Below are positions 1-5,483 of a DNA stretch of 5,947 nucleotides, in pieces (the stretch's first letter is position 1; each line of letters begins with the position of its first letter). The notes under the pieces are model-generated. The model saw nothing but the letters and a program-made list of their open reading frames with translations. It was not told where the DNA came from and did not search any database. The position numbers were made by a program, and so were the translations under genes. The stretch spans positions 1 to 5,947 of the forward strand of contig JAVVGN010000107.1 of assembly GCA_032249095.1 (NCBI GenBank). Direction: 5' to 3'. The stretch comes from Candidatus Caldarchaeales archaeon. GTDB taxonomy: Archaea > Thermoproteota > Nitrososphaeria_A > Caldarchaeales > Calditenuaceae.

Positions 1-223
1 AATCAACGTCTACAGCGGACCACACATATACATAGGATTTCTTGACACGTAGCTTAGTCTCATCAACAGCTATACACCTCCTATACCTAGGCTCCCTAGC
101 GACCCTGATTTTAGATACCTTCTTGGCGAGGTAGTGGACGGCAGACTTGCTTATAGGCTCCAAACCCATGCTAAGGACCCTAGAGACCCTCCTACAGCTA
201 CCATGGAACATGTAGTCCAACAC
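1..223 (-). CDS. IS6-like DDE transposase, N-terminal part only; the gene continues past the left window edge
   Basis: My own reverse-strand translation is open from the stop at 233-235 to the window edge. It reads ..AVLDYMFHGSCRRVSRVLSMGLEPISKSAVHYLAKKVSKIRVAREPRYRRCIAVDETKLRVKKSYVYVWSAVDVD. The AVDET..(W)xA(V/I)DVD block parallels VAVDETVLKVNGQTCYLWAAIDVD in the 3293-3622 ORF. Candidate starts are GTG 223, TTG 220 and ATG 211. It is absent from the ORF track because it runs off the edge. Confidence 0.6.
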   Translation of the reverse strand, partial: MLDYMFHGSCRRVSRVLSMGLEPISKSAVHYLAKKVSKIRVAREPRYRRCIAVDETKLRVKKSYVYVWSAVDVD

Positions 224-254: not shown

Positions 255-426
255 TACGCATAAAACAGCTCGAAACTAGGGCCACAACATCCATAACATA
301 CAAGACAAATCAACAGGCCTTTAAATATAACGCCTTATTTGGACACTATCACTATACGGATACCCAAGACCAAAATACTCGTATGATCGAGGAGGGTGAT
401 AGGCGCGAGTGGGATCCTCGGGCCAA
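255..426 (+). repeat. Repeat-family copy C: tail-only fragment whose 5' part is replaced by the IS at 1-254
   Basis: CACTATACGGATACCCAAG at 350-368 is 19/19 identical to 2743-2761 in copy A. GAAACTAGGGCCACAACATCCATAACATACAAG resembles copy A ACATACTAGGCATAGAGCACAGAAACATCCCAATACAG. AAAATACT at 372-379 matches copy B at 5486-5493. Confidence 0.65.
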
Positions 427-2206: not shown

Positions 2207-2854
2207 TAGAAAAGAGGAAAGAGTGGGGGAGGGGTTGGTTAGTCTATAGGCCTCGGCAGCAAGCCTAGGAACCCCAGACACCAGGATTAGAAACCATCAG
2301 CCCGCCGGAGAAATTCTCCAGCGATTATAATTTGAGAGCCCCCGGTGTATATAGCTCTGGGGTTTTCCCCCTCGCTGTCGGCGACCATCCCCCATCGGAC
2401 GGGACTTACACCCGGCCACGGCCCCTTTGTGCCCCGGGCATATCGGTCCCGCCCTCACCCAACCACCATACAGAACCGATGCTAGAGACGTTACATAAAC
2501 ATTCAGACACCAGACTGAAAATAACGGCCCACCATCCAAGGACATATAAGACCTCAAGGGGACTAATACTGCCAAGAGAAATCTATTACGCCCTAACAAA
2601 CATTAAGGACTTAGAGAAGAAGATAGGAGTAAGGACGAAGAGGTCTAAACAAAAACACATACTAGGCATAGAGCACAGAAACATCCCAATACAGTTGGAT
2701 TTATGGAGCAAAGAGGTAATATTCAGGGAAAAGGACAAACAACACTATACGGATACCCAAGGCCAGAAGAACCATCCAATCATAAAAAACCATCACGGAG
2801 GCAGGAATAGTGGGCCGAGGCGGACTGCGTGACGAAGCCTCGCCGCGGCCCCAC
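2207..2854 (+). repeat. Repeat-family copy A (full module: purine run, G+C-rich structured half, invariant 30-mer, A-rich tail, terminal hairpin)
   Basis: Blocks shared with copy B, in the same order: GGGGGAGGGGTT (2225-2236 vs 4907-4918); GACCATCCC (2383-2391 vs 5176-5184); CATATCGGTC (2439-2448 vs 5232-5241); a 30-mer (2481-2510 vs 5274-5303, 28/30); and GAAGAG(G)TCTAAAC..AAAACAC (2637-2658 vs 5361-5380). The copy ends in a bipartite hairpin at 2810-2854: CGAGGC/GCCTCG inside GTGGG/CCCAC. Confidence 0.8.
2210..2510. ncRNA. Candidate structured RNA of unknown class (G+C-rich half of copy A); transcribed strand unresolved
   Basis: Three helices are supported by compensatory changes against copy B (see findings). 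There is no codon periodicity in the substitutions. The segment is visibly more G+C-rich than the flanking DNA. Confidence 0.5.
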
Positions 2855-2962: not shown

Positions 2963-3022
2963 GAGGCGATGAAGAGTCAGAGTTATGCTGAGGGGTGATT
3001 GTGAGGCATTTGTCTGAGCCTC
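2963..3022 (+). ncRNA. Box C/D sRNA candidate (2'-O-methylation guide)
   Basis: Layout, 5' to 3':
- terminal stem GAGGC (2963-2967) paired with GCCTC (3018-3022)
- a 3-nt bulge
- C box AUGAAGA (2969-2975, 6/7 match to RUGAUGA)
- a 12-nt spacer
- D' CUGA (2988-2991)
- a 3-nt linker
- C' GUGAUUG (2995-3001, degenerate)
- a 12-nt spacer
- D CUGA (3014-3017)
This geometry allows tandem G.A pairs in a k-turn. Confidence 0.55.
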
Positions 3023-3140
3023 TGCCCTCCATTACCCCCATCATGCCAAAGATTCCCGCCTAAACTACTAGCCATATTTTTGCAACCTTTTGACAAATTG
3101 CATTAAGAAAGAGGCCTAAATAGTTTTGAGACCGGTTCAT

Positions 3141-3844
3141 GGGTACTGTCAAGTTGGTATTACCTCTTCTCCTCCTTGCCTGATGATGTTGTGCATTGCT
3201 GCAATAGCAGTTACTAACTCTTCTAGGCTCTTCAGTGTCTTCGCGTTTACGTTGTTGTAGAACCTTTTAGTCCTATTCTTCATCTCCCTGAACTACCTCT
3301 CCATCCTGTTCCTTTTACCGAAGGCCTCGTGGAAGTAGGTTATTCCAAGCCTATCCAATGCCCATCTATACCACGGCCCTCTATCCACAACTATGAGTGG
3401 CTTACATTCACACGGGTCCAATATCTTCCTTAGGAACTTGATTGCGCTTTGAATCCCCCTCCCCCTCGACGCGTATACGGCCAATATCTCGTTGATATCC
3501 ACGTCTATTGCGGCCCAAAGATAACAGGTCTGGCCGTTAACCTTCAGGACAGTCTCATCTACAGCGACCAGCCTCCTACCCTCCTGAACGGCCTGAAGAG
3601 GGAAGAGAACCTGTGAACCCATATCCTGACCGATTCCCTAGACGCGCCGGTTAGACATAGCCTCTCTGAGAGACCCCCTCTAACTAAGGCCCGCTATGAA
3701 GAGAATGACAGAATAGAGCTTCTCGAGAGGAGGGTACCTATGGAACCGAGAGAGACTGGCTAACGAGCTCAGTACCGCATCGATGACGAGCATCACGGCC
3801 AGAGACCCATCCCAAAAGGGCTTAAGTAAAACTTGTCAGTACCC
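3141..3844 (-). mobile_element. Complete small IS6-like insertion sequence (about 704 bp)
   Basis: The terminal inverted repeats are GGGTACTGTCAAGTT (3141-3155) and AACTTGTCAGTACCC (3830-3844, reverse complement GGGTACTGACAAGTT). They match at 14/15 positions and bracket the transposase frame. The flanking 8-mers (CGGTTCAT and AATAACAA) differ, so no target duplication is visible. Confidence 0.7.
3149..3793 (-). pseudogene. IS6-like DDE transposase: one continuous 215-codon frame interrupted by three in-frame TAG codons
   Basis: From ATG 3793 the frame reads MLVIDAVLSSLASLSRFHRYPPLEKLYSVILFIAGLS*RGSLREAMSNRRV*GIGQDMGSQVLF...VAVDETVLKVNGQTCYLWAAIDVD...VVDRGPWY...FGKRNRMER*FREMKNRTKRFYNNVNAKTLKSLEELVTAIAAMHNIIRQGGEEEVIPT, ending at TGA 3149-3151. 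The TAG codons lie at 3680-3682, 3638-3640 and 3293-3295. There are no frameshifts. The track shows only the central 3293-3622 piece. Confidence 0.8.
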
Positions 3845-3860
3845 AATAACAAAAAGAAAC

Positions 3861-3896: not shown

Positions 3897-4853
3897 TTGG
3901 CATCTTCCCCGCAGAACACTTCTTCAGAAGATCTAATATGGCTCGTGAATCATAGGACGCGGAGAAAGATCATACTTGCAATAGGGGATGCGGGGAGGAT
4001 CAGCGCCTCAACTCTTCGCTCAAGCCTGAAGATCAGTACAGGCAGCCTATACTACAATCTGAGGCAGCTTGATCCACTCGTCGCACAGGACAACAAAAGG
4101 AACTACTACTTGACGGAGAAGGGTCTGGCCGTTTACAAGATGCTGAAGGAGGGGGATAGCATGGTCCTGAACAGCTACAAGCCTTCGTCAAGCAGGTTTG
4201 AGAGGATCGTTAGCAACATCTTCTATCCAAGCTGGATCCTCGTGCCAATCCTCGAGAATACGCCGATAGCCCTGATAGTTAGCGCGCTCAGCCTTTTGCT
4301 GACTGTTGCCTTGTTTATAAATGGCAAAGTCTCCCTACTCCTACTTCACGTATACCACTGGCCAAGCTTCGACCTCGCATCCACGACTTTATCAATAGCG
4401 GGGACCGTTCTCATAATGTACTGCTACCTCTCTCTGACGACGCAGCTGTACGACGAGTATAGGAGGCGCAGAATCTTGGGCGAAAGCCAACGCGTTGACG
4501 CTGGGCGTATTAGAAGCTTACTGATTAGCTTGCTCTCCTTTAACGGGCAGTACGTCAAGGCTTTTGCGGCGATATGCATAGGCCTGTTGCCGATGTCCGT
4601 TTATCCTTTCTTGATATTTCTTGGGAGGGTCTGGGGACATAACTTGGTTTACCGGGGAGGCAGCGTAGTACCCGCCTCCCTTGCGGGAAACGTGGCCCTG
4701 GTCGCTGCGCAGATGGCTTGCTTCATTATACTCACAACCGCCACCTCACATATCCGTGGAATAAGGTGGCATATCTCCGCCCTCATCTCCTTCTCACTGA
4801 TATACCTCTCGATCATTCTTCAGTACGTAGTGCTCGGACTATCCTTTCCCTAG
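3897..4853 (+). CDS. Membrane-anchored winged-helix (ArsR/MarR-like) putative transcription regulator; about 5 predicted TM segments
   Basis: The N-terminus NHRTRRKIILAIGDAGRISASTLRSSLKISTGSLYYNLRQLDPLVAQDNKRNYYLTEKGLAVYKML reads as a wHTH. About five long hydrophobic stretches follow, for example PIALIVSALSLLLTVALFI, LSIAGTVLIMYCYLSLT, AFAAICIGLLPMSVYPFLIFLG, GNVALVAAQMACFIILTTA and ISALISFSLIYLSIILQYVVLGL. The track start at ATG 3783 lies inside the IS, so I prefer TTG 3897. GTG 3945 is an alternative. The stop is firm. Confidence 0.7.
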   Translation: MASSPQNTSSEDLIWLVNHRTRRKIILAIGDAGRISASTLRSSLKISTGSLYYNLRQLDPLVAQDNKRNYYLTEKGLAVYKMLKEGDSMVLNSYKPSSSRFERIVSNIFYPSWILVPILENTPIALIVSALSLLLTVALFINGKVSLLLLHVYHWPSFDLASTTLSIAGTVLIMYCYLSLTTQLYDEYRRRRILGESQRVDAGRIRSLLISLLSFNGQYVKAFAAICIGLLPMSVYPFLIFLGRVWGHNLVYRGGSVVPASLAGNVALVAAQMACFIILTTATSHIRGIRWHISALISFSLIYLSIILQYVVLGLSFP

Positions 4854-4892
4854 GGCTGAAGCTACTGAAGCTGATATGAACTATCTCCATGA

Positions 4893-5303
4893 GAAAAGGG
4901 AGAGAAGGGGGAGGGGTTTGGCTGACCATCCGTGCGGCATTTAGGAAACCCTAGAGGAGGCCGTACGTCATTAGATTCGTCGCAACACCCAACAGAGGGT
5001 GCGCGTCATATACTGCATCATGCCAGCCTCCGGGCTTTATCCCTGCGCCGGCATGGCCAGCCTCCCCAAAGGCTCCCAGCCCCGACCCGGGAGCAATTCC
5101 TCAGGGGGATATGGGCGGGGAGGACACTCCCCGGCGGCGCCAGCAGGCGCAGGGAGCATCTCCACTCCCCTCGGGGACCATCCCGCATCAGACGAGACAC
5201 GCATCCGGACACGGCCCATATGTGTGACCGACATATCGGTCTCGCCTTCATCAACGCTACTATCCACATGATGGCTAGAAACGTTACATAAACATTTAGA
5301 CAC
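4893..5303. ncRNA. Candidate structured RNA of unknown class (G+C-rich half of copy B); transcribed strand unresolved
   Basis: It is the paralogue of 2210-2510, and the same three helices can form with compensated substitutions. Four overlapping track ORFs here on both strands are best explained by the scarcity of stop codons in G+C-rich sequence. Confidence 0.5.
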
Positions 5304-5483
5304 AAAGCTGGAAAAAAATAAGGGAACAATCATCTAGGATATATAGGAGTAATAAAAAATGAAGAGTCTAAACCAAAACACCTACCAGGACAAAATGGGA
5401 AATATGGTCATACAACAGGACTCGTGGGGCAACGCGGTAGTATTCGTGGGAAAAGGGCAACTCACGATAGACGGATAACCATG

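What the first reader, a model, noticed from the sequence alone, without database searches (positions are those of the whole stretch)
2383..2510. 128-nt core aligns without gaps between copies, with three helices kept by compensatory substitutions
Segment 2383-2510 aligns to 5176-5303 at a fixed offset. Identity is 60/79 in the first block, 4/19 in a variable stretch and 28/30 in the last block.

The helices:
- P2: CGGGAC (2400-2405) pairs with GTCCCG (2446-2451) in A. In B it becomes CGAGAC (5193-5198) pairing with GTCTCG (5239-5244). This is a G>A change at 2402 matched by a C>T change at 2449.
- P3: this hairpin is CCCGG-C-CAC / GTG-CC-CCGGG (2411-2419 / 2429-2438) in A. Its closing pair C2411-G2438 becomes T5204-A5231 in B. 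The C.C mismatch at 2416/2432 becomes A5209-T5225.
- P1: CATCGG (2393-2398) pairs with CCGATG (2476-2481) in A. In B it becomes CATCA (5186-5190) pairing with TGATG (5269-5273).

The 19 mismatches in the first block fall 7/5/7 across the three codon phases, so the constraint looks like RNA or DNA secondary structure rather than coding.
Basis: seen in the sequence. Interest (0 to 1): 0.8.

Follow-up and report, generated by a model that had tools for sequence, protein, structure and literature searches.

The report
Hairpin and promoter of TasR-like element
The repeated 128-base block is real: it is the control region of a many-copy element of hot-spring Caldarchaeales archaea, holding a conserved hairpin that folds best on the opposite strand and the likely promoter of a small protein gene, and complete copies elsewhere carry a relative of the RNA-guided nuclease TasR.

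Summary

- Helices P2 and P3 are real, but they are the two halves of one 22-23 bp hairpin.
- In 30 distinct variants from hot-spring metagenomes, the hairpin pairs much better on the window's minus strand (91.4% against 77.5% of cells). There are 107 G.U cells against 12 A.C cells.
- Covariation is modest: 6 pairs changed on both sides, mostly from a few lineages.
- P1 is weak.
- The 28/30 block is not structure. It is most likely the BRE/TATA promoter, 28 nt before the ATG of a conserved 83-98 aa protein gene on the + strand. The gene's coding signal is strong.

Context:
- Both window copies are truncated, decayed derivatives of a roughly 2.2-2.6 kb multi-copy element of Caldarchaeales.
- Full copies carry, on the minus strand, a 284-aa TasR-like protein (RuvC plus Nop domain; profile against PDB 9MTY, E=1e-25).
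- That gene sits behind a roughly 1.3 kb GC-rich leader that begins with this hairpin.
- No TIGR array and no Rfam match were found.

The hairpin's function is inferred, not shown. My best guess is that it is the 5' structural module of the RNA partner or leader of the TasR-like module.

The parts
2208..2236 (.). Left end of copy A: purine-rich box AGAAAAGAGGAAAGAGTGGGGGAGGGGTT. On the minus strand it reads C/U-rich, so it may be the terminator of the minus-strand transcript.
   Evidence: The same box begins the similarity in every copy. The terminator role is inferred.
2237..2377 (-). A-type left arm, shared with L029 and L039. It contains further hairpins, for example CGCCGGAG-loop-CTCCAGCG at about 2303-2323.
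   Evidence: Alignment of A-type copies. The stem is kept while the loop varies. The window's own C.A on the + strand would be a G.U on the minus strand.
2378..2396 (-). Conserved flank 3' of the hairpin as read on the minus strand (GAUGGGGGAUGGUCGCCGA).
   Evidence: Nearly invariant in 30 variants.
2397..2454 (-).
   Evidence: The covariance-model hit at window 2381-2461(-) scores 79.7 bits. The fold is and the pair counts.
2455..2487 (.). Variable linker between the hairpin and the promoter.
2488..2503 (+). ACGTTACATAAACATT, a putative BRE/TATA element centred 28 nt before the start codon of the small gene, which would give a leaderless mRNA.
   Evidence: The position relative to the ATG holds in intact copies. 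Spacing is similar for the histone and TrmI genes of the window (read). No TSS data exist. Its invariance in my set is partly by construction, because it was the search pattern.
2524..2770 (+). Decayed copy of the small protein gene. The start codon is ACG instead of ATG at 2524-2526, and a 1-nt deletion after 2725 shifts the frame.
4891..4919 (.). Left-end purine-rich box of copy B (GAGAAAAGGGAGAGAAGGGGGAGGGGTTT).
4920..5189 (-). Copy B: the retained hairpin-proximal part of the GC-rich leader. Window coordinates roughly 5057-5317, which overlap the hairpin and promoter parts listed below, are 79% identical to L002 7979-8237.
5190..5247 (-). Copy B hairpin.
   Evidence: The covariance-model hit at window 5174-5254(-) scores 59.5 bits.
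5281..5296 (+). Copy B promoter motif ACGTTACATAAACATT.
5359..5478 (+). Copy B: a 39-aa remnant ORF of the small protein (MKSLNQ...VIQQDSWGNAVVFVGKGQLTIDG).
290..375 (+). 3' remnant of a further small-gene copy (...CACTATACGGATACCCAAG), lying next to an IS240-type transposase fragment.
   Evidence: (D7).

Best explanation
The block is the control region between two divergent transcription units of a multi-copy genetic element of Caldarchaeales (Aigarchaeota).

Right part (2488-2510 and beyond): this is the promoter of a small conserved protein gene on the + strand, followed by its immediately adjacent start. The promoter is a BRE/TATA element about 28 nt before the ATG, which implies a leaderless mRNA.

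Left part (2397-2454): this is a 22-23 bp hairpin formed by the opposite-strand transcript.
- In complete elements, the hairpin is the first structured module of a roughly 1.3 kb GC-rich non-coding leader that runs into a TasR-like gene (RuvC plus Nop domain).
- In the two window copies, the TasR-like gene and most of the leader have been deleted. The hairpin would then head a short non-coding RNA of a few hundred nt, ending at the C/U-rich box at the element's far end.

Proposed mechanism: I infer that the hairpin is a scaffold of the module's RNA partner, used for protein binding, processing or stabilisation, rather than a riboswitch-like three-helix fold. The stretch between hairpin and promoter is simply a poorly constrained spacer.

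Shown:
- the repeat and the multi-copy family;
- conservation of the hairpin and its strand asymmetry;
- coding of the small gene;
- homology of the associated protein to TasR.

Inferred:
- transcription start sites;
- that the hairpin acts as RNA;
- what binds it.
For: - Repeat and family: 30 distinct variants of the core were found in metagenome contigs.
- Full-length element: it spans L002 6292-8472, and many copies are 80-99% identical.
- Hairpin: every variant folds into the same long hairpin on the minus strand.
  - A covariance model recovers 36 copies.
  - 91.4% of cells are paired, against 28-47% when the partners are slid.
  - 6 pairs changed on both sides. The covariation score is 0.173 against 0.156, reached by 7 of 500 shuffles.
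- Strand:
  - There are 107 G.U cells against 12 A.C cells, so 91.4% against 77.5% are paired.
  - RNAalifold gives -28.5 against -8.4 kcal/mol.
  - A second hairpin in the A-type arm shows the same asymmetry.
- Small gene:
  - An intact 83-98 aa ORF occurs in many copies, and 145 homologues were found.
  - A homologue lies beside a 56%-identical TasR-like gene in the NCBI assembly GCA_053492165.1.
  - Differences by codon position are 113/71/168. Synonymous to nonsynonymous counts are 130/143, against 56/216 and 32/239 in the other two frames.
- Associated protein:
  - More than 565 close homologues were found, some of them from Candidatus Caldarchaeales MAGs.
  - The profile hits PDB 9MTY (TaTasR) at E=1.3e-25, TasH at 1e-5 and IS621 at 1.5e-3.
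  - 9MTY is identified as TasR in PMC12045711.
  - The DxxD and acidic RuvC motifs align, KTDENDV with KNDENDS and VADS with VAEN.
Against: - No transcript data exist, so strand, start sites and RNA ends are all inferred.
- Single-sequence folding energies are no better than shuffles, with z from -1.0 to +0.3.
- Covariation is modest, rests on few independent lineages, and comes from an alignment fitted to the structure.
- G.T wobbles would also be tolerated in single-stranded DNA.
- Compact versions of the module (L044, L048, L052) have no leader and no detectable hairpin. The hairpin is therefore not needed by every TasR-like gene of the clade.
- Neither a TIGR array nor canonical stem-loop tigRNA units are present.
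- If P1 or the outer helix is real, the RNA must start upstream of the TATA element. That conflicts with a simple divergent-promoter picture.
- The TATA-like motif (TACATAAA) is weaker than the other promoters in the window.
Confidence: 0.5

Rival explanations
1. One reading: a three-helix (P1, P2, P3) structured RNA or DNA element read on the + strand, acting as an independent ncRNA or cis-regulatory fold.
For: - P2 and P3 pair in both window copies, with matched double changes.
- RNAfold on copy A's + strand reproduces P1, P2 and P3.
- The block is non-coding.
Against: - Over 30 variants, the same pairs are only 77.5% paired on the + strand, against 91.4% on the minus strand. 107 cells are C.A or A.C on the + strand.
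- The RNAalifold + strand consensus is -8.4 kcal/mol and does not recover P2 or P3.
- P1's distal arm lies in the variable linker, has no change on both sides, and fails in about 5 of 30 variants.
- The model leaves the 28/30 block unexplained.
Confidence: 0.1
2. A DNA-level cis element of a mobile element: a single-stranded-DNA hairpin or cruciform used as a recombination, transposition or replication site. This would be comparable to the subterminal hairpins of IS200/IS605. Under this reading it is kept in non-autonomous copies because it is needed for mobility.
For: - The hairpin is retained in truncated copies whose genes have decayed.
- The family is highly multi-copy, with three copies plus a remnant within 11 kb.
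- Junctions are mosaic near the hairpin base: L039b and L029 share a left arm and flank and diverge at about window 2378-2383.
- G.T wobbles are also tolerated in ssDNA hairpins.
Against: - The hairpin is not at an element end. It lies about 375 nt from the right end and at least 170 nt from the left.
- No terminal inverted repeats or target duplications were found.
- The associated protein lacks the serine Tnp domain of IS110 recombinases.
- No empty site was recovered, so mobility itself is inferred only from copy number and differing flanks.
Confidence: 0.17
3. An operator or regulatory palindrome of the small gene's promoter, bound as double-stranded DNA by the small protein or another regulator.
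For: - It lies about 35-90 nt upstream of the putative TATA.
- It always travels with the type-(i) small gene and its promoter.
- The small protein has an unknown fold, with a beta-rich C-terminus in a poor model.
Against: - What is conserved is pairing, not sequence symmetry.
- The G.U against A.C asymmetry (107 against 12) is not expected for a dsDNA site.
- At 57 nt, the imperfect palindrome with its variable loop is far longer than usual operators.
- The small protein has no recognisable DNA-binding family.
Confidence: 0.08
4. Part of a protein-coding gene. Pipelines call a 166-aa gene at 2332-2832(+) over copy A, and 100-103 aa ORFs exist on the minus strand in the same frame in both copies.
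For: - ORFs are open on both strands in A and B.
- Metagenome pipelines called the gene.
- A + strand ORF over the hairpin is open in many copies.
Against: - Mismatch phases are 7/5/7.
- 1-2 nt indels in the hairpin loop shift the frame between copies, and copies C, L010 and L019 carry stops.
- There are no Pfam hits.
- Open frames are expected in about 70% GC sequence.
Confidence: 0.03

Closest known systems
TIGR-Tas systems, TasR type (Faure et al., Science 2025, PMC12045711; PDB 9MTY TaTasR from a Thermoproteota archaeon)
   Same: [quoted passage not shown] The profile E-value is 1.3e-25 over almost the whole length.
- The host is an archaeon of the same phylum (Thermoproteota in GTDB naming).
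- A structured non-coding region lies next to the gene. Arrays upstream of tas genes are known (bioRxiv 10.64898/2026.09.09.750476).
   Different: - There is no tandem array, of either 36-nt dual-repeat or stem-loop units.
- Instead there is one long, nearly continuous hairpin followed by a roughly 1.3 kb GC-rich leader.
- The protein is shorter, at 284 against 331 aa.
- The module is present in very many copies per population and is paired with a divergent small protein gene.
- The window copies lack the tas-like gene altogether.
IS110/IS1111 elements with bridge RNA or seekRNA (Durrant et al., Nature 2024, PMC11208160)
   Same: - It is a multi-copy element.
- The protein belongs to the same RuvC/DEDD plus coiled-coil/Nop superfamily. 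IS621 hits at E=1.5e-3, and NCBIfam transpos_IS110 gives a faint hit.
- A long non-coding region upstream of the gene could encode a structured RNA on the gene strand.
   Different: - There is no Tnp (PF02371) domain with the catalytic serine.
- No two-loop bridge RNA was recognised.
- No defined ends, core dinucleotide or target motif were established.
- The hairpin has no large internal guide loops.
Non-autonomous (MITE-like) deletion derivatives of archaeal mobile elements
   Same: Copies A and B keep both outer parts of the full element and lack the internal gene. Several loci carry the same short A-type form.
   Different: There are no terminal inverted repeats or target-site duplications. 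The ends coincide with the ends of the two divergent transcription units.
Archaeal box C/D sRNA with Nop5
   Same: The partner protein carries a Nop-type RNA-binding domain. This follows from the evolutionary link described in bioRxiv 10.1101/2024.06.21.599552.
   Different: The hairpin has no box C/D or K-turn arrangement and no guide segments. Rfam C/D models do not hit it.

Membership tests
TIGR-Tas (TasR) | An effector with a Nop domain homologous to Tas proteins | tested here: met
   The profile of the 284-aa family against PDB hits 9MTY_A (TaTasR) at E=1.3e-25 over positions 34-274 of 288, and TasH at E=1.3e-5. This applies to full-length relatives (L002, L021, L025, L042-L044). No such gene lies in the window itself.
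TIGR-Tas (TasR) | An N-terminal RuvC-like nuclease domain with acidic catalytic residues | tested here: met
   The phmmer alignment to 9MTY pairs VADS with VAEN and KTDENDV with KNDENDS. FIDFG near the N-terminus is read as the first Asp (inference). The motifs are conserved across the family.
TIGR-Tas (TasR) | An adjacent TIGR array: tandem 36-nt dual-repeat units, or stem-loop units built as box C, 9-nt spacer, box D | tested here: not met
   TRF finds no array in L002 6250-8500 or L043 2200-5200. My re-implementation of the published stem-loop heuristic finds 0 units in three leaders. Only a dispersed 13-14 nt loop motif recurs.
TIGR-Tas (TasR) | Processed guide RNAs bound by the Tas protein | not testable with these tools
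   This needs RNP pull-down and small-RNA sequencing.
IS110 family (bridge-RNA recombinases) | A DEDD/RuvC-like N-terminal domain (PF01548) | tested here: inconclusive
   Pfam PF01548 matches only 2 of 15 family members, with a best E-value of 0.027. IS621 8WT6 hits at E=1.5e-3 over the RuvC-end and coiled-coil part.
IS110 family (bridge-RNA recombinases) | A C-terminal Tnp domain (PF02371) with the catalytic serine | tested here: not met
   Close members have no PF02371 hit. Only the most distant aligned protein (P0185) matches. The aligned region lacks the SG motif (by inspection).
IS110 family (bridge-RNA recombinases) | A bridge RNA with two internal loops complementary to the target and to the element ends | tested here: inconclusive
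   The hairpin has no large internal loops. The element ends are not defined at base resolution. My complementarity screen returned only self-matches and is uninformative.
Any described RNA family (Rfam 15) | A match to a covariance model | tested here: not met
   No hit on either copy of the core at E<=1, nor on the full element L002 6100-8600.
Archaeal BRE/TATA promoter of a leaderless mRNA | An A/T-rich TATA element about 25-30 nt upstream of the start codon or TSS | tested here: inconclusive
   TACATAAA is centred 28 nt before the ATG in intact copies. The histone and TrmI genes of the window have TATA-like boxes about 30 nt before their starts (read). The motif is not a strong consensus match, and no TSS data exist.
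Protein-coding sequence (for the 79-nt first block) | Frame conservation and an excess of third-position change | tested here: not met
   Phases are 7/5/7. Non-3n indels and stops occur across copies. The neighbouring small ORF contrasts with this, at 113/71/168.

The most novel reading that the evidence does not exclude
The hairpin-led GC-rich RNA is a new, array-less kind of guide or partner RNA for a compact archaeal TasR-like nuclease. Together with the small divergent protein, it would form a self-propagating element that has multiplied in Caldarchaeales genomes, either as an RNA-guided mobile element or as a selfish homing module. That would make it an archaeal intermediate between TIGR-Tas effectors and IS110-type RNA-guided transposons. 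The window's two copies would be non-autonomous derivatives that keep the RNA scaffold.
Probability: 0.15. Interest if true: 0.85.

Novelty: new variant of a known kind. Interest (0 to 1): 0.6.

Why it matters
TasR, IS110 recombinases and Nop5 are now seen as one superfamily of proteins that use structured RNAs to find nucleic-acid targets. About two thirds of the catalogued tas loci have no recognisable guide array.

This case offers an archaeal, thermophilic, compact (284 aa) TasR-like family that:
- is present in hundreds of near-identical copies;
- has no array;
- has a conserved hairpin and a long structured leader;
- has an obligatory-looking small partner protein.

If the RNA is the guide or scaffold, the family would show how array-less Tas proteins are programmed. 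It could also show how such modules spread.

Even on the cautious reading, two practical points follow. Metagenome pipelines are calling a spurious 166-aa gene across a hairpin, a promoter and a pseudogene. And a first-pass covariation argument chose the wrong strand.

Tried and rejected
- **Rfam** on the window and on a full element gave nothing on the core.
- **tRNA scan** found none.
- **GTDB representative genomes** were scanned twice, once by DNA motif and once by protein pattern. Both scans found no relatives, so no cultured or reference genome context is available.
- **IMG/VR** gave only one chance DNA hit and three distant (23-25%) Tas-like proteins. The element is not seen in viral contigs.
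- **Structure prediction** failed twice. The TasR-like protein from a single sequence gave pLDDT 54. The small protein with a 30-sequence alignment gave pLDDT 46. Both are too poor for fold searches, so none were run.
- **The small protein** has no match in Pfam, NCBIfam, PHROGs or the PDB.
- **TIGR arrays** were sought with TRF, repeat search and a stem-loop heuristic, all negative.
- **Guide-target complementarity screen** was flawed, returning only self-matches, and was dropped for lack of statistical power.
- **Distant relatives** (P0123, P0129, P0132) sit on contigs too short to show their non-coding regions.
- **An origin-of-replication (ORB) reading** of the GGGGGAGGGG box was considered early. 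I dropped it because the box recurs as an SD-like motif before the tasR-like start codon and at element ends.
- **An intrinsic-terminator role** for the hairpin was rejected because no U-run follows it on either strand.

Full report
**1. The observation**

The repeat is exactly as described.
- Segment 2383-2510 aligns without gaps to 5176-5303 with 92/128 identities, split 60/79, 4/19 and 28/30.
- The 19 mismatches of the first block fall 7/5/7 over the three phases.
- All quoted helix sequences are correct.
- Against all other offsets of the window, the best score is 52/128 and the mean is 32.5 (sd 5.1). This is not chance.
- A 26-nt piece of the right end recurs at 350-375 (D7).

**2. Where it comes from**

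The window's flanking genes are archaeal: a histone, an adenylate-kinase-like protein, TrmI and S10. Exact-protein look-ups place the window on hot-spring metagenome contigs.

One contig, L002, carries a third copy that is much longer. Blast of that region against the fetched loci defines a full-length element of about 2.2 kb (L002 6292-8472). Many copies are 80-99% identical.

A single metagenome scan with a 19-nt motif returned 35 loci. About 27 are real, which gives 30-31 distinct variants of the core.

Two scans of GTDB representative genomes found no relatives, and IMG/VR has none.

**3. The protein of the full-length element**

On the strand opposite to the window's + strand, full copies encode a 284-286 aa protein. 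It is truncated to 197 aa in L002. More than 565 homologues exist, nearly all named hypothetical, and some come from Candidatus Caldarchaeales MAGs.

An exhaustive HMMER search finds only 65 clusters at 50% identity, so the clade is small.

Family searches gave the following.
- Pfam sees nothing, and NCBIfam gives only a faint IS110 hit.
- A family profile hits PDB 9MTY at E=1.3e-25 over nearly the full length, TasH at 1e-5, IS621 at 1.5e-3 and ISCro4 at 0.011.
- 9MTY is TaTasR, the RuvC-Nop effector of the TIGR-Tas system of a Thermoproteota archaeon (PMC12045711).
- The RuvC acidic motifs align.
- The serine Tnp domain of IS110 recombinases is absent.

The family is therefore TasR-like, not an IS110 recombinase.

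**4. No array**

- TRF and repeat searches find no tandem units in L002 or L043.
- A re-implementation of the published stem-loop-unit heuristic finds none in three leaders.
- Between the core and the tasR-like start codon lie about 1.3 kb of very GC-rich sequence, seen in L021, L025 and L043.
- Open frames there are inconsistent between copies.
- The region holds several hairpins that share a 13-14 nt loop motif closed by different stems.

**5. The hairpin and its strand**

On the + strand the alignment of 30 variants gives a weak consensus of -8.4 kcal/mol that does not contain P2 or P3. On the minus strand the consensus is -28.5 kcal/mol.

Every variant folds on its own into one long hairpin. 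It has:
- a single G-C pair;
- a 13-bp upper stem, which is P3 extended by G.U pairs;
- an 8-9 nt loop.

A covariance model built from 11 equal-length copies recovers 36 copies, 30 of them distinct. On that alignment:
- 91.4% of 683 cells are standard pairs, against 28-47% when partners are slid by 1-3 columns;
- 6 of 23 pairs show changes on both sides, in 13 cells;
- the covariation score is 0.173 against a shuffled 0.156, reached by 7 of 500 shuffles.

This is supportive but modest. The alignment was fitted to the structure, the sequences are related, and three of the six double changes belong to the one divergent B lineage.

The strand asymmetry is much clearer.
- Of the 683 cells, 517 are Watson-Crick, 107 are G.U and 12 are A.C. 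The same pairs are therefore only 77.5% paired on the + strand.
- G.U variants occur at 14 of the 23 pairs.
- A second hairpin in the A-type arm shows the same pattern.

Single-sequence energies are no better than shuffles on either strand.

P1 pairs in most variants only if G.U is allowed on the minus strand. It has no double-sided change and fails in about five variants. A possible outer helix is likewise supported only by one-sided changes.

**6. The 28/30 block and the tail**

Downstream on the + strand lies a genuine small protein gene.
- Intact copies encode 83-98 aa, for example MANHPRTYKTSKELILPREIY...GIEHGNIPIQLDLWGNEVIFRGKGQTTLYGYPRPD.
- 145 homologues are in the protein collection.
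- A 78-aa homologue lies divergently beside a TasR-like gene that is only 56% identical, in NCBI assembly GCA_053492165.1.
- The same pairing occurs with a more divergent TasR-like protein in L052, at hhalign probability 99.2%.
- Across 26 distinct DNA copies, differences from consensus fall 113/71/168 by codon position. Synonymous to nonsynonymous codon changes are 130/143, against 56/216 and 32/239 in the other frames.

In intact type-(i) copies the ATG lies 36 nt after the start of ACGTTACATAAACATT. The TATA-like TACATAAA is therefore centred about 28 nt upstream, which is the geometry of a leaderless archaeal mRNA. The window's histone and TrmI genes have the same geometry (read).

One caveat applies. 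Because that motif was my search pattern, its invariance in the collected set is partly by construction. L043, which was fetched through a protein, does carry it, whereas L042 does not carry it exactly.

**7. What the two window copies are**

Both copies lack the tasR-like gene.
- Copy A has ACG for ATG at 2524-2526 and a 1-nt deletion after 2725. It shares these defects with other A-type copies.
- Copy B keeps about 200 nt more of the leader but only a 39-aa remnant of the gene.
- A-type short elements occur at several unrelated loci, all with the same left arm.

The conserved left-end box, GGGGAAAGA.GGGGGAGGGGTT, reads C/U-rich on the minus strand. I suggest it is the terminator of the minus-strand unit, which is an inference. 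On that reading, the short copies would encode a hairpin-led non-coding RNA of a few hundred nucleotides.

Compact modules such as L044, L048 and L052 lack the leader and the hairpin altogether. The hairpin-leader is therefore specific to one large sub-family and is not universal to the clade.

**8. Interpretation**

The best-supported reading is that the block is the divergent control region of this module. It holds a minus-strand RNA hairpin at the head of the leader, or of the short ncRNA, a poorly constrained spacer, and the promoter of the small gene.

What the hairpin does is not shown. Given the Nop-domain partner, a protein-binding or processing scaffold of the module's RNA is my preferred guess.

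Mobility itself is inferred only from copy number, differing flanks and the existence of deletion derivatives. No empty site, inverted repeats or target duplications were found.

**9. Novelty**

The RNA element matches no described family. The associated protein belongs to a known superfamily (TIGR-Tas, IS110, Nop5) but departs from it in three ways: there is no array, the module is massively multi-copy, and it has a conserved small partner protein. I class this as a new variant of a known kind, with a minority chance that it is a new type of RNA-guided selfish element.

Noticed in passing
window 2965-3019 (+): A C/D-box sRNA-like sequence with recognisable C, D', C' and D boxes. It matches Rfam sR14 (E=0.025) and sR51 (E=0.15), both below gathering score.
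   Followed up: partly
window 3135-3850; window 1-220 (-): A degenerate IS with 21-nt imperfect terminal inverted repeats (3135-3155 and 3830-3850) and a frameshifted DDE_Tnp_IS240 fragment at 3293-3622(-). The start of another IS240-type transposase gene lies at the window's left edge.
   Followed up: partly
L002 7538-7823; L025 and L043 leaders: Four to five hairpins in the GC-rich leader share the loop motif (U)CCUCGRYCGGGGG, but are closed by different stems, for example GCCGGCU/AGCCGGC and CGCGGA/UCCGCG. This looks like a repeated protein-binding loop. It is not a TIGR array.
   Followed up: partly
L044 3397-4855; L052 2202-4297; L048 406-1813: These are compact versions of the two-gene module. 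The small protein gene and the TasR-like gene are divergent, only about 230-370 nt apart, with no leader and no hairpin. The small protein then has a different, longer N-terminus (MARNILLYLTESAKELLP...).
   Followed up: partly
L053 2311-4291: In one contig the small protein gene lies divergently next to a TnpB (OrfB_IS605/Cas12f-like) gene instead of a TasR-like gene.
   Followed up: no
window 2332-2832 (+); L001 11598-12098: Metagenome pipelines call a 166-aa hypothetical protein here. It fuses the hairpin, the promoter and the frameshifted small ORF, and is almost certainly a spurious gene call.
   Followed up: yes
L043 3983-3996; L048 about 945-960; window 2225-2236 and 4907-4919: The GGGGGAGGGG box that marks the left end of every copy also sits 8-10 nt before the tasR-like start codon, where it looks like a Shine-Dalgarno motif. 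It recurs inside the leader as well.
   Followed up: partly
L012 about 4640-4720; L026 about 3120-3200; L019 about 1300-1400: Several copies of the element abut tRNA genes, at either the left-end box or the right end.
   Followed up: no
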